From Candidatus Uhrbacteria bacterium (lineage in GTDB: Bacteria; Patescibacteriota; Patescibacteriia; UBA9934; GWF2-40-263), in the NCBI GenBank assembly GCA_016188425.1, contig JACPHX010000016.1, positions 22,161 through 86,160 of the forward strand: a DNA stretch of 64,000 bases, written 5' to 3'. Positions 25,701 to 47,531 of the stretch are shown here, one piece after another. The first letter of the stretch is position 1. Each line of letters begins with the position of its first letter. The notes beneath the pieces are model-generated. The model did not search any database. It was not told the origin of the DNA and saw nothing but the letters and a program-made list of their open reading frames with translations. A program made the position numbers and the translations under genes.

Positions 25701-28700
25701 TAGGCGTCGTGCGAACCCCATACCCTTCCGTGATCGAGGCCGCCGATTGGGCGGCAATTTGTACATTGATCCCCAAAGCATCGGCGATATCCGCCGCCGC
25801 GCTGGTCGCTTCGCTGCTGATGACAGATTCAAGACCCGTAAGCGTCAGAACGCCATCCGTATCGCCGGCAGCGGTGATGGCTTGGAAATACCCGGCCATG
25901 GAACTGTTCAAGGCGGCGGAGGCATCATACCGGTTCGAAACGCGCAGTACTTGTGTTGCGTCGGCTGAAAGGTCTTCGGCTAAATGAAAGACGCGCGTGG
26001 AAGAGGCGACTTCTCCCAGATCCCCGCCGATGAACCGGCTCCCCATAATGCCGTGGCCTGTCACAAGAAAATCTCCGGAAAGCGTAAGATTCTCGGTGGG
26101 GGTCGTATCTCCAAACCCGGCGAATCCGCTGCTCTTATCCAGATAGAAATCGTCGACGAAGAAGGCGATGTCTGCATTCCCCGTTGCGTCTGAAGCAAAA
26201 TTGAAAATATCCTGTCCTGCATCGGTATAGGTAAGCAGCCCTTCCGCCGTCGCAGAGGTGCCGATATGGAGCGTCGCGGGGCCCAAATACAAATCCTTCC
26301 AGCGCTGGCCGGCCGAGCCGAGGTCGTAAAAATCATCGGTTTCCGGGATGAAATCGGACGCTATATCCGCGTTAAAATCGACGGTATCGGTGGCGTCCGC
26401 ACCGAAGGTGATATTCCCACTGTCATCAAAAAGCGCAAAGGTCGAACTTGCATCTTGGATCGCTATGTCACCTGTGGTTGTCAGATCAAAGAAAAGACCC
26501 GTGGCAGAATCCACGTCCATCGTCTTGTCTCCATCATTGTCATAAACAGAATCCAACGTATCCGCGCCGCCGGTTGCGGCAAGATCGGTCCAGGTGGTTC
26601 CGCTTCCGGCACTCGTGTTGACCCAGGTCGTTCCGGCCTGATCCAAGTAAAGGGATCCTTCATTGGCCGTCACAGATCCATTAGGATCCCCAGAACCTGT
26701 ATATAAGCTGGCGGAGGTGGCACCAAATGTCAGACGGATGTATTCCGCGTCTGCAACCCCTTGTTCCACATCCAGTCGCGCGTCGGGGGTGGCGGTATTG
26801 ATCCCGACGAAGCCCGCTTGTCCACTCACGACGGATCCGTTCACGGTAAAGGCATCAATGCTTCCCCCAATCGCTGTGATGAAAAAATTATCTGATGCTG
26901 AAGCCAATTCCCATGTCAAATCCCCGGAATCGACCTCGATTAATTCTGTTCCGCCCCCATAGTTGTCGTAGGCGTCATCGAGCGTTGGGCTGCTCCCGCC
27001 GCTAAGGTCTATCCATGTATCAGCCCCATCGGTATTGACCCAAGCCGTCCCTCCCGCCCCATCTTGGTCGAGATAGATCGAACCAATGCCGCCAAACGTG
27101 TTAATCACCAGATTCGGATCCCCAGTTCCTGTATAGATACCGGGAATGAGGCCGGAAGTTTGGTCGTTCAGTGAAATAAACTTGTTGTCCTCTGGTCGAG
27201 AAATGGTGGCAAGCGAGTCGGTATCTGGTGTTGATGTCCCAATCCCGAGCCTTCCGCCTTCATCAACGACAAAGCCGGCGCCCCCGAGGTAGCGTATCGG
27301 GAACGTCTCCGTGGCGCCCGCCCCCGTGAGGTCTTCGATGAGCAGGCCGTTAAACGAGTTCACGACGCCGCTGCTGGCCAAATCCGGCCCGTTCACGACA
27401 AACGCGCCGTACGAATCGATGTCGCCAGAATCGAGGATGATCGGCCTCCCGTGGAAGCTGTATCCGGTGGGAAGACTCGCCGTTCCGTCATTGACGACCT
27501 GCCCGTTCACGCCAACCAGCACCGTTGCCAGATCATATCCAAAGGTATCGATGTTCCCGATCGCATTCCCTTCCGTACCGATAAGAGTTCCCAGTTTCAC
27601 TGCGGCTCCAGACGTATTCTGCGCGGTGGCCTGAAAAACGCCGGCGGTATTCCCGGAAAAACCCACCGAAGTCGCGGTAAAACGGGAGGAAGCGCGAAGA
27701 ACCTCATCGCCATCGGCCGTCATGTCTTCCGCCAGATGCAAGACGCGATCCGTGAAAGAGACCTCCCCCAAATCGCCTCCGTTGAACCGATTTCCCATGA
27801 TGCCGTGGCCTGTCACGAGATAATTTCCAGATACGGTGAGGTTCTCGGTGGGGGTAGTATCCCCCAAGCCGACGAACCCGGCGCTTTTATCAAGATATAT
27901 GTCGTCTGTAAAGAATGCGATGTCTGCATTCCCTGTGGCGTCAGAAGCAAAATTAAAAATATCCTGACCTGCGTCGGTATAAGTGAGCAGCCCTTCCGCG
28001 GTCGCAGACGTGCCTATATGGAGCGAGGCAGGCCCTAAGTATAAATCGCGCCATCGCTGGCCGGCAGAACCAAGATCAAAGGCAATGTCGGTTTCCGGAA
28101 TAAAATCCGAGGAGATATCCGCGTTGAAATCGACCGTATCGGTTGCGTCCGCACCGAAGGTGATATTCCCATTATTGGCAAATCTGGCAAATGTGCTCCC
28201 TGCATCCTGAATGACAAAATCTCCGGTCGCAGCCGTGATATTGAAGGTAAGGCCTGCTCCTCCTGCGTCATCGATCTCCATGATGAGGTTCCCATCCGCA
28301 ATCGACTCGGCGTAGACCTCATCGAAGTTATCGACTGTGCTTGCACCAGCCAGGTTAGACCACACGCTCCCCGTCGCGCCGACGGACGTGTTTACCCAAG
28401 TGACGCCAGTCTGATCCAGATAGATGGACCCGCGCGCCGCCGTCACTCCGCCATTGGGATCCCCGCTTCCCGTAAGAATTCCCGTGGAAGCGCCATTTCC
28501 TGTATCGGTAAGGTTGATATAAACGTCGTCTTCGCCCGCATTGGCAGATTCGATGTCGATGGCGCCATCAGGCGTGGTCGTATTGATGCCCAAAGAACTG
28601 CGCAGGTAGGTTTGCCCGCCGGAGGTCAGAAAAAATTGAACCGTTTCGTCTCCAGAGACATCCGATGTTACTTCAAACAGCCGATCCGCATCCGCGGTCG

Positions 28701-29483: not shown

Positions 29484-30452
29484 CTATGGACGCTTGGACT
29501 TGCTCATCATGGCTTTCGCCACGATCCAGCGGTTGTATTGCTTGAGGAGCAATGCGGCCGCCACGAGCAGGATCAGGAACAGCACGATCAAGAGCCATGG
29601 AATCACCCAGAACGTGGTCTGGGCAGACACGGTCTCTTGGCCTCCTGCTCCGAAATGAAGCACGAGAGACGCGGTATACGGCCCGAAGCCGAAATTGCGC
29701 CACTCCTTCATAAATTCGGAGGCATCGTCTTTGAGGGCGCTTTTCTGCCACGCGGCAGAAAACACGCGCTCGGAATTTGGCAGGACATTTCGTCCGTCGC
29801 CGTTCACGGGGAGAGCGGCAGATTCCCCCCCCAGGAAGTTCGTGACCCGAATAGCCCCGCTGGGTTTCAGATGCACGGTTCCCGAGTTTTGGAATTTGAT
29901 GTCAAAATCCACGGGCAAGCTGCTGTAGGTCCCTTTGGGAATCGAGAACGCGGTAATCCGTCCCGTCTCCTGCACGGCTCCGTCTACGCGAAGGAGCAAC
30001 AAGGTAGCAATCTCGGCGACCGTCCCGATCTGCTGTTTTGCCACCGGGCTGCTGGTCGAGAAGATCAGTCCCCCGAAATATCCCCCAGGGGAGGCATTGC
30101 GGGGAACGGAGATGTTATAGGTGACGAATTTTGTTTCTCCTGGAGCCAACGTGACTGTTTTCTCTGTAAAGGATACCCAATCTACCAAGGAGCGGGTCGT
30201 GGACTTTCCAATGAAATTGGGGGCGCCTTGCACGCCCGTGGCCTCAAAATCTTGGATTTCCGTGAAGAACGTAGATGATTCCTTCCCCTCGTTGCGCAAG
30301 CGGATCGAGCCGACAAAGGCATCGCCGGGGCCCACTTCGTATTCGACAAGAACGGGGCTGATGGTAAGGGCCTCTGCATCGTTTTGGACGACCGACAAGA
30401 GCGGGAACGCCAAAACGAGGGCGGCCAATACACAGGTAAGATTCCTCCTCAT
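29484..30452 (-). CDS. DUF916/DUF3324-like cell-surface protein with signal peptide and C-terminal TM anchor plus basic tail
   Basis: Signal MRRNLTCVLAALVLAFPLLSVVQNDAEA. Two beta-rich modules (ISPVLVEYEVGPGDAFVGSIRLRNEGKES; TLAPGETKFVTYNISVPRNASPGGYFGGLIF). C-terminal helix WLLIVLFLILLVAAALLL followed by KQYNRWIVAK. This architecture matches CscA-type DUF916 proteins of Firmicutes WxL clusters. The family call is from memory and not verified. Confidence 0.5.
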   Translation of the reverse strand: MRRNLTCVLAALVLAFPLLSVVQNDAEALTISPVLVEYEVGPGDAFVGSIRLRNEGKESSTFFTEIQDFEATGVQGAPNFIGKSTTRSLVDWVSFTEKTVTLAPGETKFVTYNISVPRNASPGGYFGGLIFSTSSPVAKQQIGTVAEIATLLLLRVDGAVQETGRITAFSIPKGTYSSLPVDFDIKFQNSGTVHLKPSGAIRVTNFLGGESAALPVNGDGRNVLPNSERVFSAAWQKSALKDDASEFMKEWRNFGFGPYTASLVLHFGAGGQETVSAQTTFWVIPWLLIVLFLILLVAAALLLKQYNRWIVAKAMMSKSKRP

Positions 30453-30462
30453 AATGGGTTTG

Positions 30463-31674
30463 TTAGAAGGTCGCCGTCGCGATGAATCGCATGGCGTCCG
30501 TATAATCAGTGTGGGCTTCTGTGGCACCGGAAATCGCCGCTTTCACGGCAACGCGCGCTTCTCCGCCCGCCACAGGACCGGCCGCGGTGAATATAGGCTC
30601 CGCCGCGGAGCTGGAAGAAGGAGTGACGCCGACGGTATGGTCGCCGGCACCGGCCGTACAGCCGTCCGCGCTCACGTCCCCGTCATAATCGCCATCCATC
30701 AAGATCGTTCCTGTAGTCGCCGAGGTAGAAACAATGCAAATTCCATATCCTTCCGTCCCGGCGACAAGGGCGGTCGCGGCCGAGGTAATCGTGTCCCCTG
30801 GCACCGAGGCCGAGGCCAAATCGATCACGGTATCCGTATTGATGACGGTCACGACGAATCCATCGGTGGCATTGGTGGCAATGTCGAACCAAATGGAATT
30901 GATGGAGCCGCCCGAAGAGGAAACCGCGCTTGAGGTAAGCGTTCCCAAGGCAACCGGAACGGTCGCCGGGTTCGTCTCCGTGTGCGTGATCCCCACATCG
31001 ATATCGAAGGTGAGGGACGCATCCACAGATGCAGTAATCGTAACCGTATCTTCTTCCACGATAGCGACGCTATCCGTTGCCGCATGGGCCGCTGACGTTC
31101 CTTCGTCATCCATCGAGAAATTGAGCGTGTAGCTTCCTGCGGTCGCTGGGTTGATCAGTTCTCCATCTGCCGAGGTTCCATCGATCGTGAATGTCACGAT
31201 CGCGGCGGCGCCAGACGCGGTATACGATGCTCCGCAAGGAATGACGCGGAAAGCGATCGCGGTCGTGTCGATGGCGACACCGACGTTATTTGCTCCATCG
31301 GCACAGGCCACCGTTGTCGTACCGGCGCCGGCGGAAACGGCATTGACTGTGCGCGCCGTCCCATCATTGAAGGTAAAATCAGCGGTTGCCCACGTTCCGG
31401 ACTGCGTAAAAGCAGCCGTTTGAGGGAAATCGTAGATAAGGACATCGGTGGAGCCCGAAACATCGAACGTCGTAGCCGCGGGAAGCGTGAGCAAGATCGT
31501 ATGATCTGCGTTCGTGCTTATTTTGAGCCTGGTCATGGTGTCTTTCACCGCCGTAAACTGCGCGGCGCTGGCCGGGCTTGCGTAGGCGACGAGGGAAACC
31601 AGCATCGCGGCGACAAGCACCCGCGCGATGTTGGTTTTCCAAGAACTCGTTTCAATAACATTCAACATAGTCAT
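30463..31674 (-). CDS. Secreted Thr/Ala/Ser-rich beta-protein, 403 aa (signal peptide)
   Basis: Signal VLVAAMLVSLVAYASPASAAQ. Low-complexity beta-strand-like composition. Ends in aromatic F. Same strand and tightly spaced (10-nt gap) with the DUF916-like gene. Confidence 0.5.
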   Translation of the reverse strand: MTMLNVIETSSWKTNIARVLVAAMLVSLVAYASPASAAQFTAVKDTMTRLKISTNADHTILLTLPAATTFDVSGSTDVLIYDFPQTAAFTQSGTWATADFTFNDGTARTVNAVSAGAGTTTVACADGANNVGVAIDTTAIAFRVIPCGASYTASGAAAIVTFTIDGTSADGELINPATAGSYTLNFSMDDEGTSAAHAATDSVAIVEEDTVTITASVDASLTFDIDVGITHTETNPATVPVALGTLTSSAVSSSGGSINSIWFDIATNATDGFVVTVINTDTVIDLASASVPGDTITSAATALVAGTEGYGICIVSTSATTGTILMDGDYDGDVSADGCTAGAGDHTVGVTPSSSSAAEPIFTAAGPVAGGEARVAVKAAISGATEAHTDYTDAMRFIATATF

Positions 31675-31849
31675 AATAATCAGTCTCGGAGCGTTTCATG
31701 AAAAGTCGCCCCGAAACAAAAGACATATGTACATTCGACCTTTATTCTGCCTGTGGAAGGTAGCCCTTGCTTCACAGCAGACGTCCCTTGATCTTGGGAC
31801 GTCTGTGGTGAAGAGAGGGTGAAAAATTTTATATGCTAGGCATGCTCTC

Positions 31850-32515
31850 CTAAAAATTAGACGTCGCAATTATCCTGTAAAGCCCCGTGTAGCTCCCTGC
31901 CACCGTAAGGGTGTCAATGGCGGCTTTGAAGGTAATGGTGGTATCGCGCCCCGTCCCCCAAATCGTCCGCGAGGCAAGAATGAGCGGCGTGGCGCTGACC
32001 GCTTGGTCTGTGGCAAAAGCCGCGTCAGCACCGGAAACCGCCACTCCAAACTCTTCGCTTCCGGCAGTGACTGATCCGTCTCCCACATCGTCGATGGTAT
32101 CGAAGGTCGCATTTTGGATCTCCTGGATTTCGGTCATGGCGAGCGTGTAGCCAAAATCCGCATTCGTGGTGACCGAAGCGGTCATGGAGGCGGTACTGAC
32201 CGTTCCGGTAGTAAGGGCGCTTGGGGAAAGAGGCATGCTCACGTCGTCTAGAGACAAAATAAGGATCGGTTCCTCATACACTTCCTCAAACCCATTGAAT
32301 GTTTTGTAGCTCGTGCTTTCCCCTTGGTTCCCCGATCGATCCCCTGTGGCCTCTTGGACGATGTAGTTGGTGGACGTCGCCCGGTTCCCTCCGCTGGTCG
32401 TCGCATCGGCCCACATGATGTAGCTTGGAGAGGAAGATTCAGCCGACGCAAAGAACGGCACCGATGCCGAGAGCATGATCACCCCCACGATCCAGCTGCG
32501 AACAGACACGCACAT
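31850..32515 (-). CDS. Small secreted protein, 221 aa (signal peptide), first gene of the surface-protein operon
   Basis: Signal MCVSVRSWIVGVIMLSASVPFFASA. Ends ...RIIATSNF. Followed by a 10-bp-stem hairpin (31773-31810) before the next gene. Confidence 0.5.
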   Translation of the reverse strand: MCVSVRSWIVGVIMLSASVPFFASAESSSPSYIMWADATTSGGNRATSTNYIVQEATGDRSGNQGESTSYKTFNGFEEVYEEPILILSLDDVSMPLSPSALTTGTVSTASMTASVTTNADFGYTLAMTEIQEIQNATFDTIDDVGDGSVTAGSEEFGVAVSGADAAFATDQAVSATPLILASRTIWGTGRDTTITFKAAIDTLTVAGSYTGLYRIIATSNF

Positions 32516-36985: not shown

Positions 36986-39358
36986 TTATTCCCCCACCGT
37001 TTTCTTCCCCAGTATCTCCGGGAGATTCTCATTCAATTTTCCCGCCTTCAATCGCGCAAGCCGTGCCTGCGCAAGCTGGTCCTCTGGATTGTACTCGAGG
37101 ATTTTTTCAACCTGTTCGATGGCCTTGGCCCCCTCCTTTTGTCGCTCATAAACCGTTGCCAGGAACCAACGGGCATTCGCGTACCCAGGGAGGAGGTTCA
37201 CGGCATGTTCAAGCGATTGCTGTGCGCGATTCACGTCCCCGTCAGCGTTTCGTCGTAAATACAGCAGACCGAGCTGAAAATAGACGCCGACATCGTACTC
37301 GTTATATCGCGCCACGCTCTCCATTTTACCAATGGCATCATCCATCCGGCCTTGCTGCTGGTAGACAAGCCCAAGCTGGTAGTGCGCCGGCGCATAATCG
37401 GGCTTGAGAATGATGGCCTGATCGAATAGTCCCTCGGCACGTTTGAGCGATTCATCTCGTTTGCGGGTTGCGGCAGCCGCGTCTCCGCCGGCTTTCGCTC
37501 CTTCCGCCACTTCTTTTGCGGCAATCGCCGTCTGGGCCAAACCATACTCAACCGCTACTGCGGGGCTGTTGGGTTCGCGCTCATATGCGGCCGCAAACGC
37601 AAGGAGCGCTCCCGAGGCCGCCTCTGGCAACAGGGGAATGAGCTCTCGTTCCACCTGCCCCAATATGAGCCAATTGCGGGCATTCCCAGGCGCAAGACGC
37701 GTTGCCTCCTTCGCCGCTTCGACAGAGAGCGCGGCGGTATCCTTGAGGGCCGTCTTCACCTCCTCGGGCATCGCCTCTGTGTCCGAATATTCCCCGACTT
37801 TTTCATTCAACAGAAACAGCAAACTTCTGGACAAGTTGCGGACATAGAGGTCGTTCCATCTGTTGAGATCTCTCGCGCGGTCCAGACGCTCCACGACCTC
37901 CAGGATGGACGCATGGGTTCGATCCGATCGGATAGCTTGCGCATAGACGATTTCCGACGCGTAACGCTGCCCGCTGAAAAAGACCAACCATGTTCCCGCG
38001 AACACTCCGAGAACAAAAACGACGATTCTCCATGTGCGTTTCGCTGGCTTGTTTGGGTGAGAGGCCGCCCGTCGATTCTCTTGGAGAGAAACGCCCTGAT
38101 CCCCAACCACAGACAGAGCCGAGAGACAAAAAATGAAAAACCCAAGAAGAACCAGGCTGATTGGATACACAAAGAACAAAACAAAACTCATCACGAAACC
38201 CAATACCCAAGGAAGTTGCTCTGGATCGAGGATTTTCCGTCGGACAAGCTGAAACAGGGTGATGACAGGAGCAACAAGGAAGCACAGCAACCCCAGCCAC
38301 CCGAAACTGGCGACTATATTGAAGAGAAAGGAATAGGCGTGATCGATACGCGTGTCCCAAAATCCAGTTTTTGCCATAGCAGGATCATGGTATTTCGCAA
38401 ACCCGAATTGGAATGTTCCACCTCCGGACCCGAGAAGGGATGAGGAATGGGAAAGAATCTTCGACACGACTTCTTTGGAAGCAGAAAAGGAAGGAGTTGC
38501 TTCCAAGGGAGGATGTACGCCCAAAAAACCAGGGAAGACGAAGAGGAATGCAGAGGCGATAAGGCAAGAAGTGAATGAAACCAATGCCAGTTTATAGCGG
38601 GGGTACCTTGTCGCGTCTGCTATGACCGCAATACATACTATCAAGGATCCGGCTGCGAAAAATCCTAGAGCAAGCCCGTAATCCACTGCGGCAAGGATAA
38701 AAAGCGAGGAAATGGCTGTCACCCAGGTCATGATCGCCTCCCAGAGAGCAAAACGTTCGTGGCGCGTTTGAAAAGGCAGCATCGCCAGCGCGAACACGCC
38801 ATACACCGCTGCAACCAGAGAGAGCTGGTTTGCGGTGCCCACGGAATTCACTCCTGACAGAACCCAGCTGGAAGGAACCAAGATGCCAACGACAGCGAGC
38901 GTCCCCGCACCCGCTCCACCTGTGACCATGGCGTGACGAAACGCACGGCGGAAAGGACTATCCATCCACGCGAATCGAAACGATACTATGGCGCAGAACA
39001 GGCCAATCCACGTCAGCACGCTCTCGGTCTCAATTCCTGATCCGCCAATCCATGAACGATACGGAGTGGACGAGCCCAGTGCCGCCACCGCTGTCACCGC
39101 TACAAAAGCCAATACAGAGAGAACGGAAGGAGGAAAAAGTTTCTGCGCACTGGGCTGCTTCAGTTGGGAACCTAGCACCCCGATAAACGACAAAACGGAA
39201 AGGACAACCAGCATTGTTTGTTTTGTGATTTCAAATGGCTCCAATGTAAAAGGCAAAAACGCCACAGGCATCAACACCGCCAAAGCGATGAGGGACCAAC
39301 GGTTCAATTTCAAAAAAAAGGAGGTGTCCCTCTGCATATGCAGATGATTATATCGCAC
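36986..39358 (-). CDS. O-antigen ligase (Wzy_C)-like polytopic membrane protein with C-terminal TPR repeats
   Basis: More than 10 predicted TM helices in the N-terminal 430 aa. The C-terminal ~250 aa have TPR-like repeats (AHYQLGLVYQQQGRMDDAIGKME...YFQLGLLYLRRNADGDVNRAQQSLEHAVNL...). Confidence 0.55.
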   Translation of the reverse strand: MRYNHLHMQRDTSFFLKLNRWSLIALAVLMPVAFLPFTLEPFEITKQTMLVVLSVLSFIGVLGSQLKQPSAQKLFPPSVLSVLAFVAVTAVAALGSSTPYRSWIGGSGIETESVLTWIGLFCAIVSFRFAWMDSPFRRAFRHAMVTGGAGAGTLAVVGILVPSSWVLSGVNSVGTANQLSLVAAVYGVFALAMLPFQTRHERFALWEAIMTWVTAISSLFILAAVDYGLALGFFAAGSLIVCIAVIADATRYPRYKLALVSFTSCLIASAFLFVFPGFLGVHPPLEATPSFSASKEVVSKILSHSSSLLGSGGGTFQFGFAKYHDPAMAKTGFWDTRIDHAYSFLFNIVASFGWLGLLCFLVAPVITLFQLVRRKILDPEQLPWVLGFVMSFVLFFVYPISLVLLGFFIFCLSALSVVGDQGVSLQENRRAASHPNKPAKRTWRIVVFVLGVFAGTWLVFFSGQRYASEIVYAQAIRSDRTHASILEVVERLDRARDLNRWNDLYVRNLSRSLLFLLNEKVGEYSDTEAMPEEVKTALKDTAALSVEAAKEATRLAPGNARNWLILGQVERELIPLLPEAASGALLAFAAAYEREPNSPAVAVEYGLAQTAIAAKEVAEGAKAGGDAAAATRKRDESLKRAEGLFDQAIILKPDYAPAHYQLGLVYQQQGRMDDAIGKMESVARYNEYDVGVYFQLGLLYLRRNADGDVNRAQQSLEHAVNLLPGYANARWFLATVYERQKEGAKAIEQVEKILEYNPEDQLAQARLARLKAGKLNENLPEILGKKTVGE

Positions 39359-39696: not shown

Positions 39697-42600
39697 TTAT
39701 TCGCTGACTGGGCCAAAGACGATCTCGTCTGGAACAGGGTCAGAGGCAGGGACATCAACCTCCGTCGGGGGAGGATCGGCTGGCTGATCGCCTGTTCCTA
39801 CATCCGTAGACGGATCAGTACCCGCGTCTCCAGATGTGTCTGTGCCGTCGACTGGATCTGGTGCTGTGTTAGTCGTTGTGTCTGTGGTTGTCCCTGCCCC
39901 CTCATCTGCAATCTCATCTATGACCTCCGGCTCATGGTCTTTACGATACGCATACACAACCCAATCGAAGCTGACGCCGTTTTCTGTGCCACCGATTTGT
40001 TGAACGGTGAATCCATTGTTATCGCGCTGCGACACATACAAGGAAACGGGTCCATTTGGAGTGGCGATGACGCGGATAGGAGCAAAAGTCGAGATGATGT
40101 CATTGAAAGCGGGGTTTACCTCTTCAAAGACGATGGTGGCGCTGCCATTTTCCAGCAATCCTTCGCCGACCAAGGTCGCGAACGGTTCCATAGAAACAGT
40201 CGCAACGGTTTCAACATCTTCACCTTGGTAGGATTCGATGACGTTCTTCACGAGACCTTTGGTGACAAAATTTCCTTCTTCATCGATGGCCCACACGCCA
40301 GCAAGGCCGTTGATGCGGCCGACATCGAGGATTTCATTGCCGTGCGCATAGAAACTGCCGTAGAGGTCGAGCTGTGACAAACCGCTTACTCCCGAGGTGG
40401 TGCCAGTGATGGTCTCCGTCCCAGGAATCGATTCTGATTCCCCAGTAAACAACGATGTTTGGACAAAGACGACGATCAAATCATCGGCGGCACCGCTTGT
40501 ATATGGTTCCAACGCGTATCCGACGATCATGCCCGATTCCGTCGCTTTCATGGCGACACCTGGGGTGGAAGAGGCGGTGAGGGGATCGCCGATCGCGATA
40601 TCGCCATTTTCGTTTGATACTCTCGTTGGCACGCGCCCCATAAGGGCAACGGGGTAGTGACCGGGGAGATTTTCACCTGCGAGAAACCCTGGCTTGGTGG
40701 AGATAATGCCGGCGAGAATTTCATCAGCGGAACCGGTGCTCTTCATGATAGTTTCGTTTCCCGCCACGGAGAAAGCGACGACGTCCCCAGGGACAAGGGA
40801 GGCGGCAGATGGGAACATTTCCGCGAAATCATAGGAACCAGTGCTCCAACCGGAGGCATTGGTGCGCATCATGTCGCCGCCCGGACCTTCTGAATTATCG
40901 TAGAAAATATATTTATCCATTTGCTTCGTGCCGCTGGCGGATGGATAGAGCTTGCCGCCGATCACGATATCGCCATTGAGTTCAGCTGTGCCGAGATTGT
41001 TGATGAGGGCGACTTCTTGATCTGAAGCGTCCTTGACGGATAAGCGATAGTCCGTCGTGGAGGTGGTCGCCAAGGAGAGGCTCATGGAGACACCATCCGC
41101 ACTCGTCGTGTCTGTATTCCATGCGCTTCCACGGAAGACGAACGCCCGCGAATCAACCGCCGTGGCGATTTCCGTCGCCGTTCCTTCCGCCGACAGCACG
41201 GCAGCCGTGGCCAGCGAAATCATCGAGCCGTCGTTGCCGATCGCCATGCCGCTGTGCCACGAAGGCTGCACATACACGCGAATCGTGCCGACTCCAGGCC
41301 CATTCCATGCATCAAGGGCGATGCCGACCACCATGCCGGGAAGAGTGGATTTCATGCCCGCGCCAGCGGTCGAGGAAGAGGTGATGGGGTCGCCTGGGCG
41401 AATTACTCCGTTCTCATCGCTCACTTTCAGAGGAACGCGGCCGGCGGTCGCGATGGCTTTCGGATACGTGGCTGCATCTATCACGCCGCGGCCATAGCTC
41501 TGTGCCGGCGAGGTGGAGACGATACCGACGATGCGTGATTCGTAAGGGGTCGAGGATTTATCGAGAACGGTCAGATCACTGACGATCTTGCCTCCCGTGA
41601 GGACGCCGGTGAGCGGTTCCACTTCATCCGCCTCGTAGGTGATGGTGGCATCCGTGGCAACGACCAAGTCTCCCGCGGTTTCATCACCGGTTGTTTCATA
41701 CCATTCCGCGATGTCATCCGGAGCCCCGGAACAGACGACGAGTTCGCGATCCGTGGCCGTGGTATCCGAATCCGCCCCGCTGTGACAGACGCCGTTGGTG
41801 GTGGCGGCCCCGTTGAAATCAGTCTTGATGACTCCGTTCACGTCCAAGATCGTGGCGCCGATGGCGATAGTGCCGTCGGTACCGTCGTTGTCGATGGTTT
41901 CGCCTTGCTGGAGGGTGATGTCGGTGGTCATCCGATTGCCGGCACCGTCTCCTAAAACAAGACCATTGGTAATGGTGCCGCTCGTTCCGTTTATTTTGAT
42001 TCCATTGGTCATTCCAGAGGTCCCGGTACTATCAATAAACAGGCCGTTTGTCACCACAACATTTGCTCCATCACCCGTAGGATCTGCGTTGTTGATATAC
42101 ACAAGGGTATCGACCAATAGATCCGAAGAACTGGAAGTGGATTGATTTTCCACACGCAGGACGCGCTCTGTTGCGCCTGCAGTTGACGTGCTTTGAGTCC
42201 AAGGAATATCGATGCCGATATCTGTTCCTCCGCTCGCGCCATGTACATTCGTGATATTGAATTTGTAGGCCGAGAATCCTGAAGCACCGTTATTATGTCT
42301 TGACGTGAGATCAAGAACAGAACCTGTTGAAAAATTATTGGCTCCGCTCGTGAAATTCACGATATCGCCTGCTCCAAACGAGCTTCGGGAAAGCGAGAAC
42401 ATGTTTGCGGCGGCGGTATTGCTCGTGAATCGGAACGTCCCATCGTCCTCATTGTCGATGGTCTGACCGCTCTGCAGTTTGAAATCTGTGATCATATCAA
42501 CCTCCCCAGAACTGAAATCGATCCCCGTAAGCACCCCATCAGTCACCTTGTATCCAACTGTTGCTGTGTTTGTACCGGCCAAATCGATATTAATACCATT

Positions 42601-45600
42601 CGTAATCCCATCGGCGATCCCTCCTGAATTCAATATGTTGATGGCATTGGTTGCTTTCACGCTTTGCGTGGCGGTCGTGTCGTCATTATCCAATACGAGC
42701 AAAGTGTTAATGGCGAGATCGTCATTAGTCGCCGTATCTTCTACCACATGGATCTCAAACACCTTTTCCTGACTTCCATTAAATTCTGAGTCTTGCTGCC
42801 AGGCAAAATCGTATCCCCAGATATTATTGGAACCTCCTCCGCTTGTTGCATTTACAGTCTTAAATTTATTAGCAGTAAACCCGAAACTTGTCCCATCGTG
42901 CCGTGAAGTGACATTGAAGGCGCTCCCCACTGAATCGAAGTATCCTGTAGAGGAGGCATAATTGATCAGGCTTCCGGACATGCTTGCCAAATCATGATCA
43001 AAGGTCAATACATTCGCGCTATCGGTCGTGTTTGAGGTGAGCTTCAGGGTTTGCGTGGAAAGATTTATGACTCCCAGCGTTGCGTTATCAATACGCGAAA
43101 CACTTGCCGAGCTTGCATCGTAATCTCCCCGCAACCGAATTTCGGCCGTTCCAGTAAAATCTGTCGCAGTTACTGACGTATTATCAGAAAAATTAATTCC
43201 ATAGCCGACTCCGTCCAATATGGTAATGCCATTGGCAAATCCGTTGCCCGTCATCGCCTCCCCGATCTTGATACCGTGCGAAAAGACATCTGTATTATCT
43301 CCGGTATTGGAAATCTCCAGGGCTTGCGATATGGTCATGTCTTGCGTAAGAGTCGTATCTGAATTATTCAATCGTAATAGCGACTGGATGTTTGTATCAG
43401 AGTTTCCGCCGGAATCGTCTTCGATATTCCGGATATCCACGACAATCTCGTTTCCCCCATTGAATGAGGCGCTGTTTTGCCAGATAAAGTCATACCCTTT
43501 CGAACCGGCGGCACCGCTCCCTGACTGATTATTGATGATATTAAATTCTCCAGCGGTGAAACCGGGTCCGTTATGCGATGATGTCACATTAAAAACACGC
43601 CCCGTCCCATTGAGGGACGATGTTGTCGATACATCAAAAATATCGCCGGATGTTGCCCCGGATGTAATCTGAATTGCCTGCCCGCCGGATGTCTGCGTCC
43701 CGGTAGTGATCGCAAGAGCGGTGCCGGTGGTCAGTGCGCTTGTGTTGATATTGATGCCGGTCCCTGAAGACATGGAGGTTGCATCCAATACAATACCCGA
43801 CCCCGTAGTGGCTCCCGAAGCAATGTGGATTGCCTCTCCTCCGGCTATTTGCGTTCCAGTTGTCATTTCGATACCTGATCCGGTAGTCAATGATGATGCG
43901 GTGATCCCAAGCGCGAATGCGGTTGTTGCAAAACTATCGATATCAAACGTGCCATCTGGTGTTGTGTCGTTTATACCGACTCTTCCTGCAGATTTATCAA
44001 GATACAAATCGTCCGTAAAAAAGGCGATGTCGCCGTCTGACGTTGCGTCCGTACCGAAGTTAAAAATACTGGAGACGCTATTGTACGACAACGTCCCTTC
44101 ATTTGTTGCCGTATCGCCGACGTGAAGCGTGGCTCCGTCCAAATACAAATCCCCCCATCGCAACGCACTCGTACCAAGATCGAGCGTGCCGTCGGCAGAA
44201 GGGACGATCGCCGAACTCACACGGCTCACAAACGAAACCGTATCGGTCGTCGCGTCACCAAGCGTCACATTGCCGTTGAATGTGCCGACGCCGGCATTCG
44301 TCATGGTGAACAAATCGGTCCCGGCGCTATTTTCAAATACAACGAGGTTTGTGGTTTGTGCCGCATTCGCCTGCACGAGGAATTGGATTTCATCCGCGTT
44401 TCCGTCCACGGCCAAATTGGCAGAGAGGTTTGTCGCCGTACCGACCGTGACGTTATCCGTGGCGGTCGTGAGGCGCACAAGCGTGCCATCGTCGGTCCAG
44501 CCGCCGCCACCACCCGCGCCGATTTGCACGAACGAGGCGCCGTTGTACATGTACAAACCATCCCCCGTGGCATCCCAAACAATATCCCCCTCGGCTGTCC
44601 CCGTGACGGAGGATGGCGCGCCCGCATTCGTGGGAATGTTCAACCCGACGTTCGCCGCATGCGCGGCCGTGTCGACTCGTTTCGTCGTAACGACATTGCC
44701 GGAGGAATCAACCGTAAACAGGTCACCGGACCCGACCGTAAACAAGGCAGCGGGGGTTGCATCGCCGATACCGACAAATCCGCTGTCAGCGAACGTCACA
44801 AATGGGGTTCCCGCATCCGCGATGGTAAAGTCGCCCGTCGTCGTCAGGTTGTAGGTGAGACCCGTTGCATCGTCGATTTCCATGGTCAAATTCGTATTGG
44901 TGATGGATTGCGCGTACACCTCGTCGAAATCGGGAGTCGAGACGCTGCCCGCCAAATCCGTCCACGTCGTTCCCGCGTCTCCCGCGCTGGAATTCACCCA
45001 CAATTTTCCCGTCTGATCCAGATAAATAGAGCCGGACTCTGCCGAGTGGGAGGGGGTTCCCGTTCCGGTTTGGATATCGACTTCGTCTGCATTCGTACTG
45101 TCTGTCAATCGGATGAAATTCGTATTCTCAGCGTCAACGATGTCGATATGCGTATCCGGAGCCGTGGTTCCCATGCCAATCCACCCATTTACATCAACGA
45201 CGAAATCGTCCGGGCCGAAATAGCGGATCGGAAAGGCGGCCACAGAGGCAGATGCCGATAAGTCATCAATGGCCAGCCCATAAAAATTCCCAACGACTCC
45301 GGTACTGGAGGCAAATGTGTCATTGATGGTCACTGCATAATAATCCGTAATATCTCCCGCCCCCGTGAGCAATGGTCGGGTGATGACTCCGTAGGCAGAA
45401 GTTATATCTCCAGAAGATTCGTTGACTACTTGCGCGCTCACGGCCATGGCACTCGTAATAGGATCCGGTCCTCCTCCGACCGCTTGGTTGCTCACGACAG
45501 ATTGCACGCCAGTCAAAGTATCTACGGCATTTATCAGCCCTGTCTTTGCAATAGATTGAAAGTATCCTGCCGTGGACGCATATCCTGCCGCCCCTGGGCT

Positions 45601-46914
45601 GAATTGATTCGAGACGCTCAGCACGCGCGTCGCGTCGGCCGTAAGATTTTCTGATACATGCAGCACCCTGTCCGCCCCCGCGACTTCTCCCAAATCTCCT
45701 CCTGTGAACCGATTTCCCATGATGCCGTGGCCTGTCACGAGATAATCGCCGGCGACAGTAAGATTTTCCGTTGGCGTCGTATCGCCAACTCCAACGAATC
45801 CAGTTGATTTGTCCATGTATAAATCATCCGTAAAAACGGCGATGTCTCCATTGGTTGTGGAATCGGTTGCAAGATTCAGGACATTCGTCCCCGTATCATA
45901 GGAGAGCGTTCCTTCATCCGTTGCGGATGTCCCAATATGGAGGGTGGCCGGGCCCAGATACAAATCCGACCATCGTTCCCCGGTTGTCCCTAAGGAAAAA
46001 GTATCGTTGGCAAGAGGAATGATGTTGCCATCTGCTGCCAGTGTCCCCCCAGCGGTGATATAAAACTCAACCTGGTCATTTGTCCCCGCATCGGAAAGAA
46101 TTTCAATCATCCTATCATTTGTATCCGCCGATTCGCTGTCAATGTCTACAATAGCGTCGACATCCGTTCTATTCGTCGACGTATTGACGATATTCACAGC
46201 TCCCGTAAGCGCAAGGTCTGCATCCGACTCGGTTACGAGTACGGAAGAAGCTGCCCCAGTCTGCGTCGCATCGAATCCATCGAGATTATCCGCATTCATT
46301 GTCCACGGTGTTGCAGACAATCGAATGCGCGGAGTCATCTCTGCCGTGTCGGGCGAGATGGCTATCCCAATATACCGATCCGATACGGAATTGAACAAAT
46401 TGTTTGGAAGCACGTTCTGCCCGGAGTCTCCTAATAATAAGGAAAAGACACCGTCGACGACCGGAACGGAAATGGCCGCGTCCGGCGTATCGCCTCCACA
46501 ATCAATGGTGGCTGTGTTTGCGTCTGTGTTTCCAGCGCTCCATAAACAAGTACCGCCCGTGGAGGCGGTATAAATGGCGAACATCATGGAATACGAACCA
46601 TCATCCACCGTTACGCGCAATTCATTCGTGATTTTAGCTTGAAAAGAGACTACGTTAGGGACACCGACGGCCGCTTGTGCCGAAAAAGGGAGGAGTGTTG
46701 GCGCGACAAGCATGGACGCCAGCACAAAGACACACTGCATCCAACCGGACGCAATCCTCCACGAACAATCCCTAGGATGACGGTGTGTCATACCTCCCAC
46801 GTCGGCAAAATAAAATCGTGGAAATGCCATTACCTGGCAAACCCCACGATTCAGGCCTATTGGCCACTTACCGTCCTGCAAATGCATCATACCATGAAAA
46901 CAAATAGTAGTCAA
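39697..46914 (-). CDS. Giant repetitive surface protein, 2405 aa; paralog of ORF 19753..29388
   Basis: Signal-like MQCVFVLASMLVAPTLLPFSAQAA. N-terminal 140 aa, the GGGGWTDDGTLVRLTTATDNVTVG module, the DLGxxxxRWxDLYLGPATLHIGTSAT module and both C-terminal ~150-aa domains are shared with the 3211-aa protein. Divergent, acidic Pro/Thr-rich C-tail. A later start at the Met before the signal region (~46791) is possible. Confidence 0.8.
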   Translation of the reverse strand: MTTICFHGMMHLQDGKWPIGLNRGVCQVMAFPRFYFADVGGMTHRHPRDCSWRIASGWMQCVFVLASMLVAPTLLPFSAQAAVGVPNVVSFQAKITNELRVTVDDGSYSMMFAIYTASTGGTCLWSAGNTDANTATIDCGGDTPDAAISVPVVDGVFSLLLGDSGQNVLPNNLFNSVSDRYIGIAISPDTAEMTPRIRLSATPWTMNADNLDGFDATQTGAASSVLVTESDADLALTGAVNIVNTSTNRTDVDAIVDIDSESADTNDRMIEILSDAGTNDQVEFYITAGGTLAADGNIIPLANDTFSLGTTGERWSDLYLGPATLHIGTSATDEGTLSYDTGTNVLNLATDSTTNGDIAVFTDDLYMDKSTGFVGVGDTTPTENLTVAGDYLVTGHGIMGNRFTGGDLGEVAGADRVLHVSENLTADATRVLSVSNQFSPGAAGYASTAGYFQSIAKTGLINAVDTLTGVQSVVSNQAVGGGPDPITSAMAVSAQVVNESSGDITSAYGVITRPLLTGAGDITDYYAVTINDTFASSTGVVGNFYGLAIDDLSASASVAAFPIRYFGPDDFVVDVNGWIGMGTTAPDTHIDIVDAENTNFIRLTDSTNADEVDIQTGTGTPSHSAESGSIYLDQTGKLWVNSSAGDAGTTWTDLAGSVSTPDFDEVYAQSITNTNLTMEIDDATGLTYNLTTTGDFTIADAGTPFVTFADSGFVGIGDATPAALFTVGSGDLFTVDSSGNVVTTKRVDTAAHAANVGLNIPTNAGAPSSVTGTAEGDIVWDATGDGLYMYNGASFVQIGAGGGGGWTDDGTLVRLTTATDNVTVGTATNLSANLAVDGNADEIQFLVQANAAQTTNLVVFENSAGTDLFTMTNAGVGTFNGNVTLGDATTDTVSFVSRVSSAIVPSADGTLDLGTSALRWGDLYLDGATLHVGDTATNEGTLSYNSVSSIFNFGTDATSDGDIAFFTDDLYLDKSAGRVGINDTTPDGTFDIDSFATTAFALGITASSLTTGSGIEMTTGTQIAGGEAIHIASGATTGSGIVLDATSMSSGTGININTSALTTGTALAITTGTQTSGGQAIQITSGATSGDIFDVSTTSSLNGTGRVFNVTSSHNGPGFTAGEFNIINNQSGSGAAGSKGYDFIWQNSASFNGGNEIVVDIRNIEDDSGGNSDTNIQSLLRLNNSDTTLTQDMTISQALEISNTGDNTDVFSHGIKIGEAMTGNGFANGITILDGVGYGINFSDNTSVTATDFTGTAEIRLRGDYDASSASVSRIDNATLGVINLSTQTLKLTSNTTDSANVLTFDHDLASMSGSLINYASSTGYFDSVGSAFNVTSRHDGTSFGFTANKFKTVNATSGGGSNNIWGYDFAWQQDSEFNGSQEKVFEIHVVEDTATNDDLAINTLLVLDNDDTTATQSVKATNAINILNSGGIADGITNGINIDLAGTNTATVGYKVTDGVLTGIDFSSGEVDMITDFKLQSGQTIDNEDDGTFRFTSNTAAANMFSLSRSSFGAGDIVNFTSGANNFSTGSVLDLTSRHNNGASGFSAYKFNITNVHGASGGTDIGIDIPWTQSTSTAGATERVLRVENQSTSSSSDLLVDTLVYINNADPTGDGANVVVTNGLFIDSTGTSGMTNGIKINGTSGTITNGLVLGDGAGNRMTTDITLQQGETIDNDGTDGTIAIGATILDVNGVIKTDFNGAATTNGVCHSGADSDTTATDRELVVCSGAPDDIAEWYETTGDETAGDLVVATDATITYEADEVEPLTGVLTGGKIVSDLTVLDKSSTPYESRIVGIVSTSPAQSYGRGVIDAATYPKAIATAGRVPLKVSDENGVIRPGDPITSSSTAGAGMKSTLPGMVVGIALDAWNGPGVGTIRVYVQPSWHSGMAIGNDGSMISLATAAVLSAEGTATEIATAVDSRAFVFRGSAWNTDTTSADGVSMSLSLATTSTTDYRLSVKDASDQEVALINNLGTAELNGDIVIGGKLYPSASGTKQMDKYIFYDNSEGPGGDMMRTNASGWSTGSYDFAEMFPSAASLVPGDVVAFSVAGNETIMKSTGSADEILAGIISTKPGFLAGENLPGHYPVALMGRVPTRVSNENGDIAIGDPLTASSTPGVAMKATESGMIVGYALEPYTSGAADDLIVVFVQTSLFTGESESIPGTETITGTTSGVSGLSQLDLYGSFYAHGNEILDVGRINGLAGVWAIDEEGNFVTKGLVKNVIESYQGEDVETVATVSMEPFATLVGEGLLENGSATIVFEEVNPAFNDIISTFAPIRVIATPNGPVSLYVSQRDNNGFTVQQIGGTENGVSFDWVVYAYRKDHEPEVIDEIADEGAGTTTDTTTNTAPDPVDGTDTSGDAGTDPSTDVGTGDQPADPPPTEVDVPASDPVPDEIVFGPVSE

Positions 46915-47435: not shown

Positions 47436-47462
47436 ATATGTAAAAATTCCAAATTCTAATTT

Positions 47463-47504: not shown

Positions 47505-47531
47505 TGCTTGGGATTTGATGCTTTCCATTTT

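What the first reader, a model, noticed from the sequence alone, without database searches (positions are those of the whole stretch)
39697..46914. Second giant paralog (2405 aa) 10 kb away, sharing N-terminal and C-terminal modules with the 3211-aa giant
The two giants share several regions: the N-terminal ~140 aa (VTVDDG.YSM.FA.Y......CLWSAGNTDANTATIDC.GDTPD...GVFSLLLGD.GQN); a GGGGWTDDGTLVRLTTATDNVTVG module; DLGxxxxRWxDLYLGPATLHIGTSAT modules; and two tandem ~150-aa C-terminal domains (YDFAEMF / AEWYETTGDE ... GDVV ... STKPG ... GRVP.KV.DENG.I..GD.LT.SS.PG.AMKAT). Their middles and tails have diverged. Paralogous giant surface proteins with shared ends and variable middles suggest a variable adhesin/receptor-binding family. 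I do not recognise the C-terminal domain as a named family.
Basis: seen in the sequence. Interest (0 to 1): 0.65.

Follow-up and report, generated by a model that had tools for sequence, protein, structure and literature searches.

The report
Giant tail-fibre-like surface proteins of Uhrbacteria

Summary
The 2405-aa and 3211-aa ORFs are paralogs (BLASTP E=0). They share an N-terminal domain, internal modules and a ~700-aa C-terminal cassette with a duplicated ~140-aa domain.

That domain belongs to a named family. It is a divergent Peptidase_G2 intramolecular-chaperone/autocleavage domain, as in the phage phi29 gp12 appendage:
- Profile E=5e-4 to 3GQH.
- An invariant D-x-A-E motif aligns with D692/E695 of gp12.

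The window is Candidatus Uhrbacteria chromosome (NCBI MBI2551353.1 and MBI2551344.1, both 'hypothetical'). The family is large: about 32,000 50%-identity clusters match the domain profile. Its tandem-cassette members keep the two ends and vary the middle completely.

The gene sits in a conserved Uhrbacterial locus. A 13-TM+TPR membrane protein follows it in 68 of 80 loci, and a weak PamT (CPR pilus) homolog lies nearby.

A ~740-nt tract covering the neck and first chaperone domain is 90% identical between the two paralogs while the flanks are saturated. I read this as gene conversion.

Best reading: Sec-exported, tail-fibre-like surface fibres for target recognition, analogous to Bdellovibrio MAT fibres, folded and then trimmed by tandem G2 chaperones. 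Cleavage, trimerisation and binding are inferred, not shown. This is a new variant of a known kind.

The parts
39697..46914 (-). Giant A, maximal ORF of 2405 aa. The probable gene is 39697-46740 (2347 aa, NCBI MBI2551353.1) or starts at 46788 (M43).
46672..46740 (-). Giant A signal peptide (M59...SAQA|AV). Read from the sequence; no predictor was run.
   Evidence: All aligned family members have an N-terminal hydrophobic leader before the domain.
46267..46662 (-). Giant A conserved N-terminal beta-sandwich domain (aa ~85-216, with the C123-C139 pair). This is the presumed cell-proximal foot.
42097..46266 (-). Giant A variable middle (aa ~217-1606). It contains RWxDLY, GGGGW and other modules shared only with B. 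The distal part (aa ~1200-1650) has low GC3.
41239..41976 (-). High-identity tract shared with giant B (aa ~1647-1892: neck plus the first G2 domain). It is 90.5% nt identical with dS ~0.1-0.4, against saturated flanks. I read it as a gene-conversion tract.
41239..41715 (-). Giant A first Peptidase_G2-like intramolecular chaperone domain (aa 1734-1892). The putative cleavage/catalytic motif is D1734-I-A-E1737, preceded by the C1710-C1728 pair.
40831..41238 (-). Inter-domain beta-rich spacer (aa 1893-2028), ending in the highly conserved YPSxxGxxQxxKYIxYDxSxGPGGDxMRTNASGWxTGSY.
   Evidence: median spacer 127 aa in 156 tandem proteins
40423..40830 (-). Giant A second Peptidase_G2-like domain (aa 2029-2164). 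The motif is D2029-F-A-E2032.
39925..40422 (-). C-terminal beta-sandwich domain (aa ~2165-2330). The last ~80 residues have pLDDT ~95.
39697..39924 (-). Acidic, Pro/Thr-rich low-complexity tail and stop codon.
19753..29388 (-). Giant B, maximal ORF of 3211 aa (NCBI MBI2551344.1, 3206 aa from M6). It is the paralog with the same end architecture. N-domain 28843-29226; G2 domain 1 at 21319-21795 (D2532/E2535); G2 domain 2 at 20509-20910 (D2827/E2830); conversion tract 21319-22056.
36986..39358 (-). 790-aa polytopic membrane protein (~13 hydrophobic segments) with C-terminal TPR repeats, directly downstream of giant A. It is a conserved partner gene.
   Evidence: Pfam finds TPR only. Hydropathy. 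It follows the giant in 68 of 80 related loci.
29484..32515 (-). Three secreted-protein genes directly upstream of giant B. p221 (31850-32515) is a weak PamT/Pam-pilin-C homolog. p403 (30463-31674) has a leader peptide, is T/A/S-rich and has no family hit. p347 (29484-30452/30527) has a leader, a weak Ig-like match and a C-terminal TM helix.
15556..19704 (-). 1382-aa fn3/CarboxypepD_reg protein downstream of giant B. In most relatives a homolog of its C-terminal part lies immediately upstream of the giant.

Best explanation
Giants A and B are chromosomal genes of a Candidatus Uhrbacteria (Patescibacteria/CPR) bacterium. I propose that they encode Sec-exported, phage-tail-fibre-like surface fibres.

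Shown here:
- A leader peptide is followed by a conserved ~130-aa beta-sandwich N-domain.
- A 1400-2300-aa middle is unrelated between family members.
- A conserved C-terminal cassette has the order G2 domain 1, ~130-aa spacer, G2 domain 2, beta-sandwich, acidic tail.
- The two G2 domains have the fold of the phi29 gp12 autochaperone and keep its D-x-x-E cleavage-site motif.

Inferred:
- After export the chains fold from the C-terminus. The G2 domains nucleate and proof-read trimer formation.
- The G2 domains then cut themselves off, before D1734 and D2029 in A and before D2532 and D2827 in B.
- This leaves a mature fibre whose foot (the N-domain) is held at the cell envelope and whose variable shaft and tip bind a target, most plausibly the host cell of this episymbiont.
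- The conserved neighbours take part in anchoring or modifying the fibre. These are the 13-TM+TPR protein, the Pam-pilus-like proteins and the fn3 protein.

The two paralogs exchange the neck plus first-chaperone unit by gene conversion, while their shafts diverge.
For: Domain identity:
- A profile of 41 domain instances hits 3gqh_A at E=4.8e-4, 6qz9_A at 1.5e-3 and the 'chaperon domain D4' of a tailspike (28nb_A) at 2.7e-3. Profile D10/E13 align on D692/E695, and D692 is residue 1 of the crystallised fragment 3gqh_A.
- 12 of 41 members hit PF11962 on their own, best E=2.1e-10.
- D...E is kept in 415 of 426 domain instances.

Phage comparison: in viral contigs the same domain is a single copy at the extreme C-terminus of ORFs of >2000 aa.

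Export and foot: leader peptides and the N-domain sit directly after them in A, B and 87 of 138 representatives.

Variable middle.

Cellular rather than viral origin:
- Housekeeping neighbours.
- Conserved synteny holA/RmuC/.../giant/TPR790/YchF across Uhrbacteria.
- No PHROG hit.
- The NCBI records name Candidatus Uhrbacteria.

Appendage context:
- p221 hits the NCBIfam PamT model at E=3.5e-11.
- The Pam-pilus preprint reports a 'tail fibre-like protein' consistently next to pam operons.

Analogy: Bdellovibrio MAT fibres have a signal peptide, a conserved ~130-aa beta-rich N-domain, a variable fibre tip and a self-cleaving S74 chaperone, and are located on the cell surface (PMC10769870).

Gene conversion.
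Against: - Cleavage, trimerisation, surface location and binding were not and could not be tested here.
- A's own domains do not reach Pfam's PF11962 cut-off: 18.2 bits against 25 for domain 2, and no hit for domain 1.
- No known G2 or S74 chaperone is internal or tandem. Here about 240-380 residues follow the second copy.
- From my own knowledge of Xiang et al. 2009 (Mol Cell 34:375), which was not readable here, release of the phi29 domain after cleavage needs ATP. ATP is not available outside the cell.
- The shaft has no detectable relative in PDB, Pfam, PHROGs or NCBIfam, so its fibrous, trimeric nature is only assumed.
- No membrane or cell-wall anchor motif was found.
- The N-domain shows no relation to the neighbouring Pam-like proteins.
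- The PamT match is far below its curated cut-off (43 bits against 240).
Confidence: 0.6

Rival explanations
1. The G2-like domains are not chaperone/proteases here. They are permanent structural or adhesive knobs of the mature protein, exapted like the related capsid cement/decoration fold, and the whole C-terminal cassette is the conserved distal 'head' of the fibre.
- 11 of 41 members hit PF09956 and 6 hit PF23982.
- The arrangement is tandem and internal, with further folded domains after each copy. This is unlike any described intramolecular chaperone.
- The cassette is the most conserved part of the protein.
Against: - The D-x-A-E motif at the exact position of the phi29 cleavage site is kept in 97% of 426 instances, in both copies. 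Cement proteins have no reason to keep it.
- The best structural and sequence matches are to the phi29 chaperone, not to cement proteins.
- In phages the same subtype is terminal, as expected for a chaperone.
Confidence: 0.2
2. The giants are tail-fibre genes of a prophage, tailocin or other phage-derived particle integrated in the chromosome. They are not cellular surface proteins.
For: - The chaperone domain family is typical of phage tailspikes and occurs in viral contigs on very large ORFs.
- Structural neighbours are all phage or pyocin fibres.
Against: - No phage structural, packaging or lysis genes lie nearby. The neighbours are RmuC, holA, polA, YchF, recA and tRNAs.
- The same gene order is kept in dozens of Uhrbacteria species.
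- There is an N-terminal leader peptide.
- There are no PHROG hits.
- The N-domain has no match in 50,697 phage genomes.
Confidence: 0.05
3. The giants are large secreted envelope or matrix proteins, for example S-layer-like or biofilm proteins, with no specific target recognition. The variable middle reflects relaxed constraint or immune/phage evasion rather than binding specificity.
For: - The middles are compositionally simple: T/S/G/N/A/D make up 58% and K+R 3.5%.
- They have no recognisable binding domains.
- The neighbouring genes also encode huge secreted repeat proteins with FG-GAP and fn3 domains.
Against: - Conserved ends with replaced middles, and a phage-type chaperone, are the hallmark of receptor-binding fibres in phages and in Bdellovibrio MAT proteins.
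- The modules are long and non-repetitive, not low-complexity.
- The neck plus chaperone unit is kept by conversion.
Confidence: 0.15

Closest known systems
Phage phi29 gp12 pre-neck appendage C-terminal autochaperone (MEROPS/Pfam Peptidase_G2, PF11962; PDB 3GQH, 3SUC)
- Detectable profile similarity.
- Same D-x-x-E motif at the start of the domain, where gp12 is cut.
- The domain follows a long fibrous protein.
   Different: - Only ~20% identical, and below Pfam's cut-off for A itself.
- Two copies per protein, neither at the very end.
- A bacterial, Sec-exported protein rather than a virion protein.
- Folding would occur outside the cell, without ATP.
Bdellovibrio bacteriovorus MAT (mosaic adhesive trimer) fibres (Caulton et al. 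2024, PMC10769870)
   Same: - A cellular, not viral, tail-fibre-like surface protein family of a bacterium that lives on other bacteria.
- Signal peptide, a conserved ~130-aa beta-rich N-domain with no PDB relative, a variable distal part, a self-cleaving C-terminal chaperone in most members, and many paralogs.
   Different: - MAT proteins use an S74 chaperone (SDxxxK); these giants use G2 (DxxE) in tandem.
- MAT proteins are ~1000 aa; these are 2300-3200 aa (up to 6800 in the family).
- Homology of the N-domains was not tested, because no MAT N-terminal sequence or AFDB library was available.
S74-type intramolecular chaperones of phage fibres (K1F endosialidase, T5 pb1; PF13884)
   Same: Same logic: a C-terminal trimerisation chaperone that cuts itself off.
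   Different: - Different fold: alpha/beta with a coiled coil, against all-beta here (PMC4690869).
- No S74 hit in A or B, although some homologs of the cassette also carry PF13884.
'Tail fibre-like protein' next to pam (CPR pilus) operons (Troman et al. 2026, bioRxiv 10.64898/2026.03.03.709456)
   Same: - A CPR-specific context.
- A PamT-like gene and a leader+Ig-like+C-terminal-TM protein lie directly upstream of giant B, and upstream of the single giant in most relatives.
   Different: - The preprint only mentions the protein in a neighbourhood network and does not describe it.
- Pam pilins were reported mainly in Saccharimonadia and Microgenomatia.
- The match here is weak (43 bits, cut-off 240), and no PamA/B homolog was detected.
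Phage capsid cement/decoration proteins (PF09956 Phage_cement_2, PF23982)
   Same: The C-terminal half of the domain (GRVPxKV...ENGxIxxGD...SSxPGxAMKA) has the same fold and weak sequence similarity.
   Different: Cement proteins are small stand-alone capsid proteins. The characteristic DxAE N-terminal half matched only the phi29-type chaperones and the large viral ORFs.

Membership tests
Peptidase_G2 (PF11962) intramolecular chaperone / autocleavage domain | Match to the Pfam model above its gathering cut-off (25 bits) | tested here: not met
   A domain 2 scores 18.2 bits, E=0.0017. A domain 1 gives no hit, and the whole proteins give no hit. However, 12 of 41 homologous domain instances match on their own, best E=2.1e-10.
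Peptidase_G2 (PF11962) intramolecular chaperone / autocleavage domain | Fold of the phi29 gp12 C-terminal autochaperone | tested here: met
Peptidase_G2 (PF11962) intramolecular chaperone / autocleavage domain | Asp and Glu of the cleavage site (D692-x-x-E695 in gp12) at the start of the domain | tested here: met
   Profile positions D10/E13 align on DFAE of 3gqh_A (residues 1-4) and on 692-695 of 6qz9_A. They are invariant in 41 sequences and kept in 415 of 426 instances. In A the residues are D1734/E1737 and D2029/E2032.
Peptidase_G2 (PF11962) intramolecular chaperone / autocleavage domain | Single copy at the extreme C-terminus of a tailspike or fibre | tested here: not met
   There are two copies, with ~510 and ~240 residues after them in A. 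Among 262 family proteins, 169 have two copies, with a median of 240 residues after the second. Viral relatives do have one terminal copy.
Peptidase_G2 (PF11962) intramolecular chaperone / autocleavage domain | Autoproteolysis after trimerisation | not testable with these tools
   This needs expression and mutagenesis, or proteomics.
Bdellovibrio MAT-type cellular fibres | Signal peptide followed at once by a conserved ~130-aa beta-rich N-domain | tested here: met
   Shown by alignment A3 and by position 1-270 in 87 of 138 representatives. The AF2 model is a beta sandwich. This shows the same layout only; homology to the MAT N-domain was not tested.
Bdellovibrio MAT-type cellular fibres | Intertwined trimeric beta-helix/beta-prism shaft | not tested
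The shaft has no sequence relative in the PDB.
Bdellovibrio MAT-type cellular fibres | S74 chaperone (SDxxxK) or a non-S74 tip domain at the C-terminus | tested here: not met
   There is no PF13884 hit in A or B. A G2-type cassette stands in its place.
Pam pilus system of CPR bacteria | Pam pilin, tip pilin and chaperone genes in the same locus | tested here: inconclusive
   p221 hits NF058579 PamT at E=3.5e-11 but only 43 bits against a cut-off of 240, and NF058581 at 25 bits against 55. p403, p347 and the fn3 protein give no NCBIfam or PDB match. p347 has only the PamC/D-like layout: leader, Ig-like region and a C-terminal TM helix.
Phage cement protein (PF09956) | Match above the gathering cut-off (24 bits); small stand-alone capsid protein | tested here: not met
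   16.9 bits. The domain is part of a 2400-aa secreted protein.

The most novel reading that the evidence does not exclude
These giants are the target-recognition fibres of a CPR-specific surface appendage. The N-domain docks onto products of the conserved Pam-pilus-like / fn3 / 13-TM-TPR locus. Two sequential, ATP-independent, self-cleaving G2 chaperones allow a 2000-6000-aa trimeric fibre to fold only after the whole chain has left the cell. The neck plus chaperone-1 unit is kept interchangeable between paralogs by gene conversion, so new shafts and tips can be swapped in. On this reading the family would be the main host-range determinant of Uhrbacteria and many other Patescibacteria.
Probability: 0.25. 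Interest if true: 0.75.

Novelty: new variant of a known kind. Interest (0 to 1): 0.55.

Why it matters
How CPR/Patescibacteria recognise and hold on to their hosts is largely unknown, and almost none of them are cultured.

- **A large candidate family.** The domain profile matches about 32,000 clusters at 50% identity. Among the GTDB genome hits to the tandem cassette, most records that carry a taxon name are Uhrbacteria or Patescibacteria. Its tandem-cassette members have a phage-fibre layout and conserved, searchable ends. This offers a concrete candidate for host-range determinants.
- **A way to mine the variable parts.** The conserved ends can be used to pull the variable binding parts from metagenomes.
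- **An undescribed chaperone arrangement.** The tandem, internal G2 chaperone cassette has not been described to my knowledge. If it is active, it shows that phage-type intramolecular chaperones can work on Sec-exported proteins without ATP.
- **A link to Pam pili.** The locus ties these fibres to the recently reported CPR Pam pilus genes.

For the scan itself, the 'unknown C-terminal domain' is explained by a known family. The finding is interesting but not categorically new.

Tried and rejected
Searches that found nothing:
- Whole-protein scans of A and B against Pfam, PHROGs and NCBIfam gave nothing significant.
- Single-sequence phmmer of the C-terminal 642 aa against the PDB gave only chance hits.
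- The shafts of A and B have no sequence relative in the PDB.
- Exact look-ups of RecA and of giant A in the assembly index found nothing on record. The source was identified through cluster membership instead.

Tools that were limited or unavailable:
- The word-indexed homolog search with the N-terminal region found only 9 hits, and its profile found 63 short fragments. This wrongly suggested a rare domain. BLAST against the full-length representatives showed it in 87 of 138.
- Foldseek against afdb50 was unavailable, so the test against Bdellovibrio MAT N-domains could not be run.
- The phi29 gp12 paper (PMC2692858) is not held.

Hypotheses tested and not supported:
- N-domain against GenBank phages gave no match.
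- N-domain profile against the neighbouring p403 and p221 showed no relation.
- p403, p347 and p221 have no meaningful hit against PDB sequences.
- Prophage origin was rejected on context.
- The 177-aa ORF at 47331-47864, which seemed conserved next to the giant, is not a gene. It overlies two tRNA genes.
- Tandem Repeats Finder found no DNA-level tandem repeats inside the giants.
Full report
**1. Observation**

The window holds two very long minus-strand ORFs: A at 39697-46914 (2405 codons) and B at 19753-29388 (3211 codons) (translations). BLASTP aligns them at 46.6% identity over 2323 columns with E=0.

- N-terminal region: A71-293 ~ B40-261, 47-55% identity.
- Internal modules: A494-742 ~ B1209-1457 at 63%. 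The GGGGWTDDG module is at A802 and B1514. RWxDLY modules are at A314 and A919 and at B445, B1029 and B1632.
- An 82% block: A1607-1920 ~ B2405-2718.
- The rest of the C-terminus: 45-54% up to A2339/B3136.

The two ~140-aa C-terminal domains are a genuine internal duplication, detected by one profile with domain E-values of 1e-41 to 1e-62. B also has internal duplications at 63-67% identity.

The TTG at 46914 lies in the -35 box of a promoter-like site, TTGACT-17-TGnTATGAT. The protein therefore probably starts at M43 or M59. The public gene call (P0143, 2347 aa) is identical to A from M59, and P0152 (3206 aa) is identical to B from M6.

**2. Source and context**

The two proteins are NCBI MBI2551353.1 and MBI2551344.1. 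Both are 'hypothetical protein [Candidatus Uhrbacteria bacterium]', with locus tags HYV73_03345 and HYV73_03295, on a 118-kb contig.

The window is ordinary chromosome. It carries FtsK, RecA, a class II aminoacyl-tRNA synthetase core domain protein (Pfam tRNA-synt_2), PolA, the pol III delta subunit, RmuC, YchF, a XerC-like recombinase and five tRNAs. There are no phage genes, and the giants have no PHROG hit.

**3. The C-terminal domain**

Whole-protein Pfam scans are empty. Domain 2 alone gives weak hits to Peptidase_G2 (PF11962: E=0.0017, 18.2 bits, cut-off 25) and to Phage_cement_2 (PF09956: E=0.0086).

A homolog search with A1725-2331 returned 146 proteins. The named ones are mostly Candidatus Uhrbacteria and other Patescibacteria, and some carry precomputed PF11962, PF13884 or PF09956. 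All 120 listed homologs contain the domain.

An alignment of 41 diverse instances, covering both copy types, has these invariant positions: D10, E13, G50, G74, G85, G90, D91, G100 and G113. Its profile hits three PDB entries:
- 3gqh_A, the phi29 gp12 C-terminal fragment, at E=4.8e-4.
- 6qz9_A, full-length gp12, at E=1.5e-3.
- 28nb_A, the 'chaperon domain D4' of a tailspike, at E=2.7e-3.

D10 and E13 align on D692 and E695 of gp12. D692 is residue 1 of the crystallised fragment 3gqh_A and, from my own knowledge of Xiang et al. 2009, the first residue of the released fragment. Twelve of the 41 members hit PF11962 on their own, best E=2.1e-10.

Across 426 domain instances in 262 family proteins, the D...E pair is kept in 415.

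The domain is therefore a divergent Peptidase_G2-type intramolecular chaperone with its cleavage-site motif intact. In A the motifs are D1734/E1737 and D2029/E2032. In B they are D2532/E2535 and D2827/E2830.

The T5 pb1 paper notes that the phi29 chaperone is beta-stranded, unlike the alpha/beta S74 type (PMC4690869). This fits the all-beta model.

**4. What is unusual about the cassette**

- In viral contigs the same subtype is a single copy ending 5-17 residues before the stop of ORFs of more than 2000 aa. That is the canonical arrangement.
- In the bacterial family, 169 of 262 proteins have two copies. The median spacer is 127 aa and a median of 240 residues follows the second copy.
- The model shows a beta-rich spacer, the second G2 domain, and a confident C-terminal beta-sandwich.
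- In a third of proteins a Cys lies within 12 residues upstream of the first DxAE. A and B have a Cys pair there: C1710/C1728 in A and C2508/C2526 in B.

**5. Family-wide architecture and census**

The domain profile hits 31,979 cluster representatives (50% identity) at E<=1e-3, 25,666 at E<=1e-10 and 4,767 at E<=1e-30, out of 1.84 billion. The top 150 are mostly 1000-6800 aa with two copies near the C-terminus. That library carries no taxonomy, so part of the total is surely viral.

In GTDB species-representative genomes, 282 loci encode the tandem cassette. Most of the best 80 with a taxon name are Uhrbacteria or other Patescibacteria. Complete ORFs range from 573 to 3278 aa, median 1937.

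I mapped which parts of A and B find matches in 138 representatives and 80 loci:
- The N-terminal ~70-250 residues: up to 82 of 138 representatives.
- The C-terminal ~700 residues: nearly all.
- The middles: essentially none.

**6. Conserved locus**

tblastn of the window's neighbouring proteins against the 80 loci shows a canonical Uhrbacterial order:

holA, RmuC (opposite strand), tRNAs, p221, p347, an fn3_1382-like gene, GIANT, TPR790, YchF, methyltransferase (opposite strand).

TPR790 (36986-39358) has ~13 hydrophobic segments plus C-terminal TPR repeats. It directly follows the giant in 68 of 80 loci.

In the window the locus is split in two:
- RmuC, tRNAs, giant A, TPR790, YchF, racemase/methyltransferase.
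- p221, p403, p347, giant B, fn3_1382, a 1587-aa FG-GAP protein.

L067, a 1.0-Mb chromosome, shows the same order on the stretch that is visible.

p221 matches NCBIfam 'CPR-type pilus protein PamT' at E=3.5e-11 (43 bits, cut-off 240) and the Pam pilin C-domain model at E=1.6e-5. The 2026 preprint describing Pam pili reports chaperones with a C-terminal TM helix and an fn3 anchor protein. It also reports 'a tail fibre-like protein' consistently next to pam operons. p347 has that chaperone layout (leader, Ig-like region, C-terminal TM helix), but no sequence or PDB match supports it.

The link to Pam pili is a lead, not a finding.

**7. Gene conversion between the paralogs**

Codon-wise comparison gives saturated synonymous divergence for most shared blocks, with pS 0.59-0.95. 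The exception is A1647-1892 / B2445-2690, which has 88-100% amino-acid identity and dS of about 0.1-0.4.

At the DNA level this 738-nt tract is 90.5% identical. Identity reaches 98% in 60-nt windows, and the longest identical run is 68 nt. Identity drops to 33-62% within 60 nt on either side.

The tract covers the last ~85 residues before the first cleavage motif plus the whole first G2 domain. The simplest reading is gene conversion of the 'neck plus chaperone' unit.

The segment just upstream of the tract has lower GC3 (0.42-0.51, against 0.70 in the tract) in both genes. This is compatible with imported shaft or tip modules.

**8. Mechanism (inferred)**

By analogy with phage fibres and with the Bdellovibrio MAT family, I propose the following sequence:
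- The chains are exported by Sec.
- Folding starts at the C-terminal cassette once the whole chain is outside the cell.
- The G2 domains template and check trimerisation, then cut before D1734 and D2029.
- This leaves a fibre anchored by its N-domain, with a variable shaft and tip for target binding.

The MAT family is the closest functional analogue. It has a signal peptide, an invariant ~130-aa N-domain presumed to bind a surface element, variable tips and a self-cleaving S74 chaperone shown by mutation, and it is located on the cell surface (PMC10769870).

Shown here: domain identities, motif conservation, architecture, distribution, synteny and the conversion tract.

Not shown: cleavage, oligomeric state, location, the ligand and the role of the neighbouring genes.

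The main counter-arguments are these:
- The tandem, internal position of the domains.
- The ATP-dependent release reported for phi29. This is from my own knowledge of Xiang et al. 2009; the paper is not held.
- The use of the same fold by non-cleaving cement proteins.

**9. Verdict**

Its claim that the C-terminal domain is unnamed is wrong.

The finding is a new variant of a known kind: cellular tail-fibre-like proteins with self-cleaving chaperones. The new elements are:
- The G2 type of chaperone in tandem.
- The CPR host.
- The conserved locus with a 13-TM+TPR partner and Pam-like genes.
- The conversion tract.

Noticed in passing
window 41239-41976 (A) and 21319-22056 (B): A sharply bounded ~740-nt tract is 90.5% identical between the two giants (dS ~0.1-0.4), inside genes whose other shared parts are saturated at synonymous sites. 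It is probably gene conversion of the neck plus first chaperone domain.
   Followed up: partly
window 36986-39358 (-): A 790-aa protein with ~13 hydrophobic segments and C-terminal TPR repeats has no family hit for the membrane part. It directly follows the giant gene in 68 of 80 related Uhrbacteria loci. It could be a glycosyltransferase/ligase-like or anchoring partner.
   Followed up: partly
window 29484-32515 (-): Three leader-bearing genes lie upstream of giant B. p221 weakly matches NCBIfam PamT / Pam pilin C domain (CPR pilus). p347 has the leader, Ig-like region and C-terminal TM helix described for the PamC/D chaperones. p403 has no hit. A 2026 preprint notes a 'tail fibre-like protein' next to pam operons.
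   Followed up: partly
window 10755-19704 (-): Two more very large secreted proteins lie directly downstream of giant B: 1382 aa (fn3, CarboxypepD_reg) and 1587 aa (10 or more FG-GAP repeats). Homologs of the C-terminal part of the 1382-aa protein lie immediately upstream of the giant in 47 of 80 relatives.
   Followed up: partly
window 47331-47864 (-): The 177-aa ORF is an artefact. It overlies tRNA-Ala(cgc) at 47360-47435 and tRNA-Arg(cct) at 47532-47607, which explains its apparent conservation in related loci.
   Followed up: yes
window 46886-46914 (-): A promoter-like site, TTGACT-17-TGnTATGAT (10 of 12 matches, extended -10), overlaps the first codon of the maximal ORF of giant A. The annotated 2405-aa length is therefore too long by 42 or 58 codons.
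   Followed up: yes
window ~41980-43300 (A aa ~1200-1650) and ~22190-24440 (B aa ~1650-2400): The distal parts of both variable middles have clearly lower GC and GC3 (0.42-0.51) than the adjoining conserved cassette (0.70) and the rest of the window (~0.55 GC). This is a compositional mosaic that could mark imported modules.
   Followed up: no
window 34692-34752: A tandem repeat of a 10-nt unit (CCCTTGTTCA, 6.2 copies) lies in the intergenic space between the racemase-like gene and YchF.
   Followed up: no
giant B aa 361-592/945-1176, 1651-1848/1837-2034, 2071-2257/2284-2470: There are three pairs of long internal duplications (63-67% identity) within giant B. The extra length of B relative to A is largely due to duplicated modules.
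   Followed up: no
loci L001, L003, L008, L015, L016 and others: Many GTDB records that carry this Uhrbacteria-type locus are titled 'uncultured Gammaproteobacteria bacterium' (binchicken/SRP co-assemblies). Their gene content and synteny match Uhrbacteria, so the titles look like placeholder or wrong taxon names.
   Followed up: no
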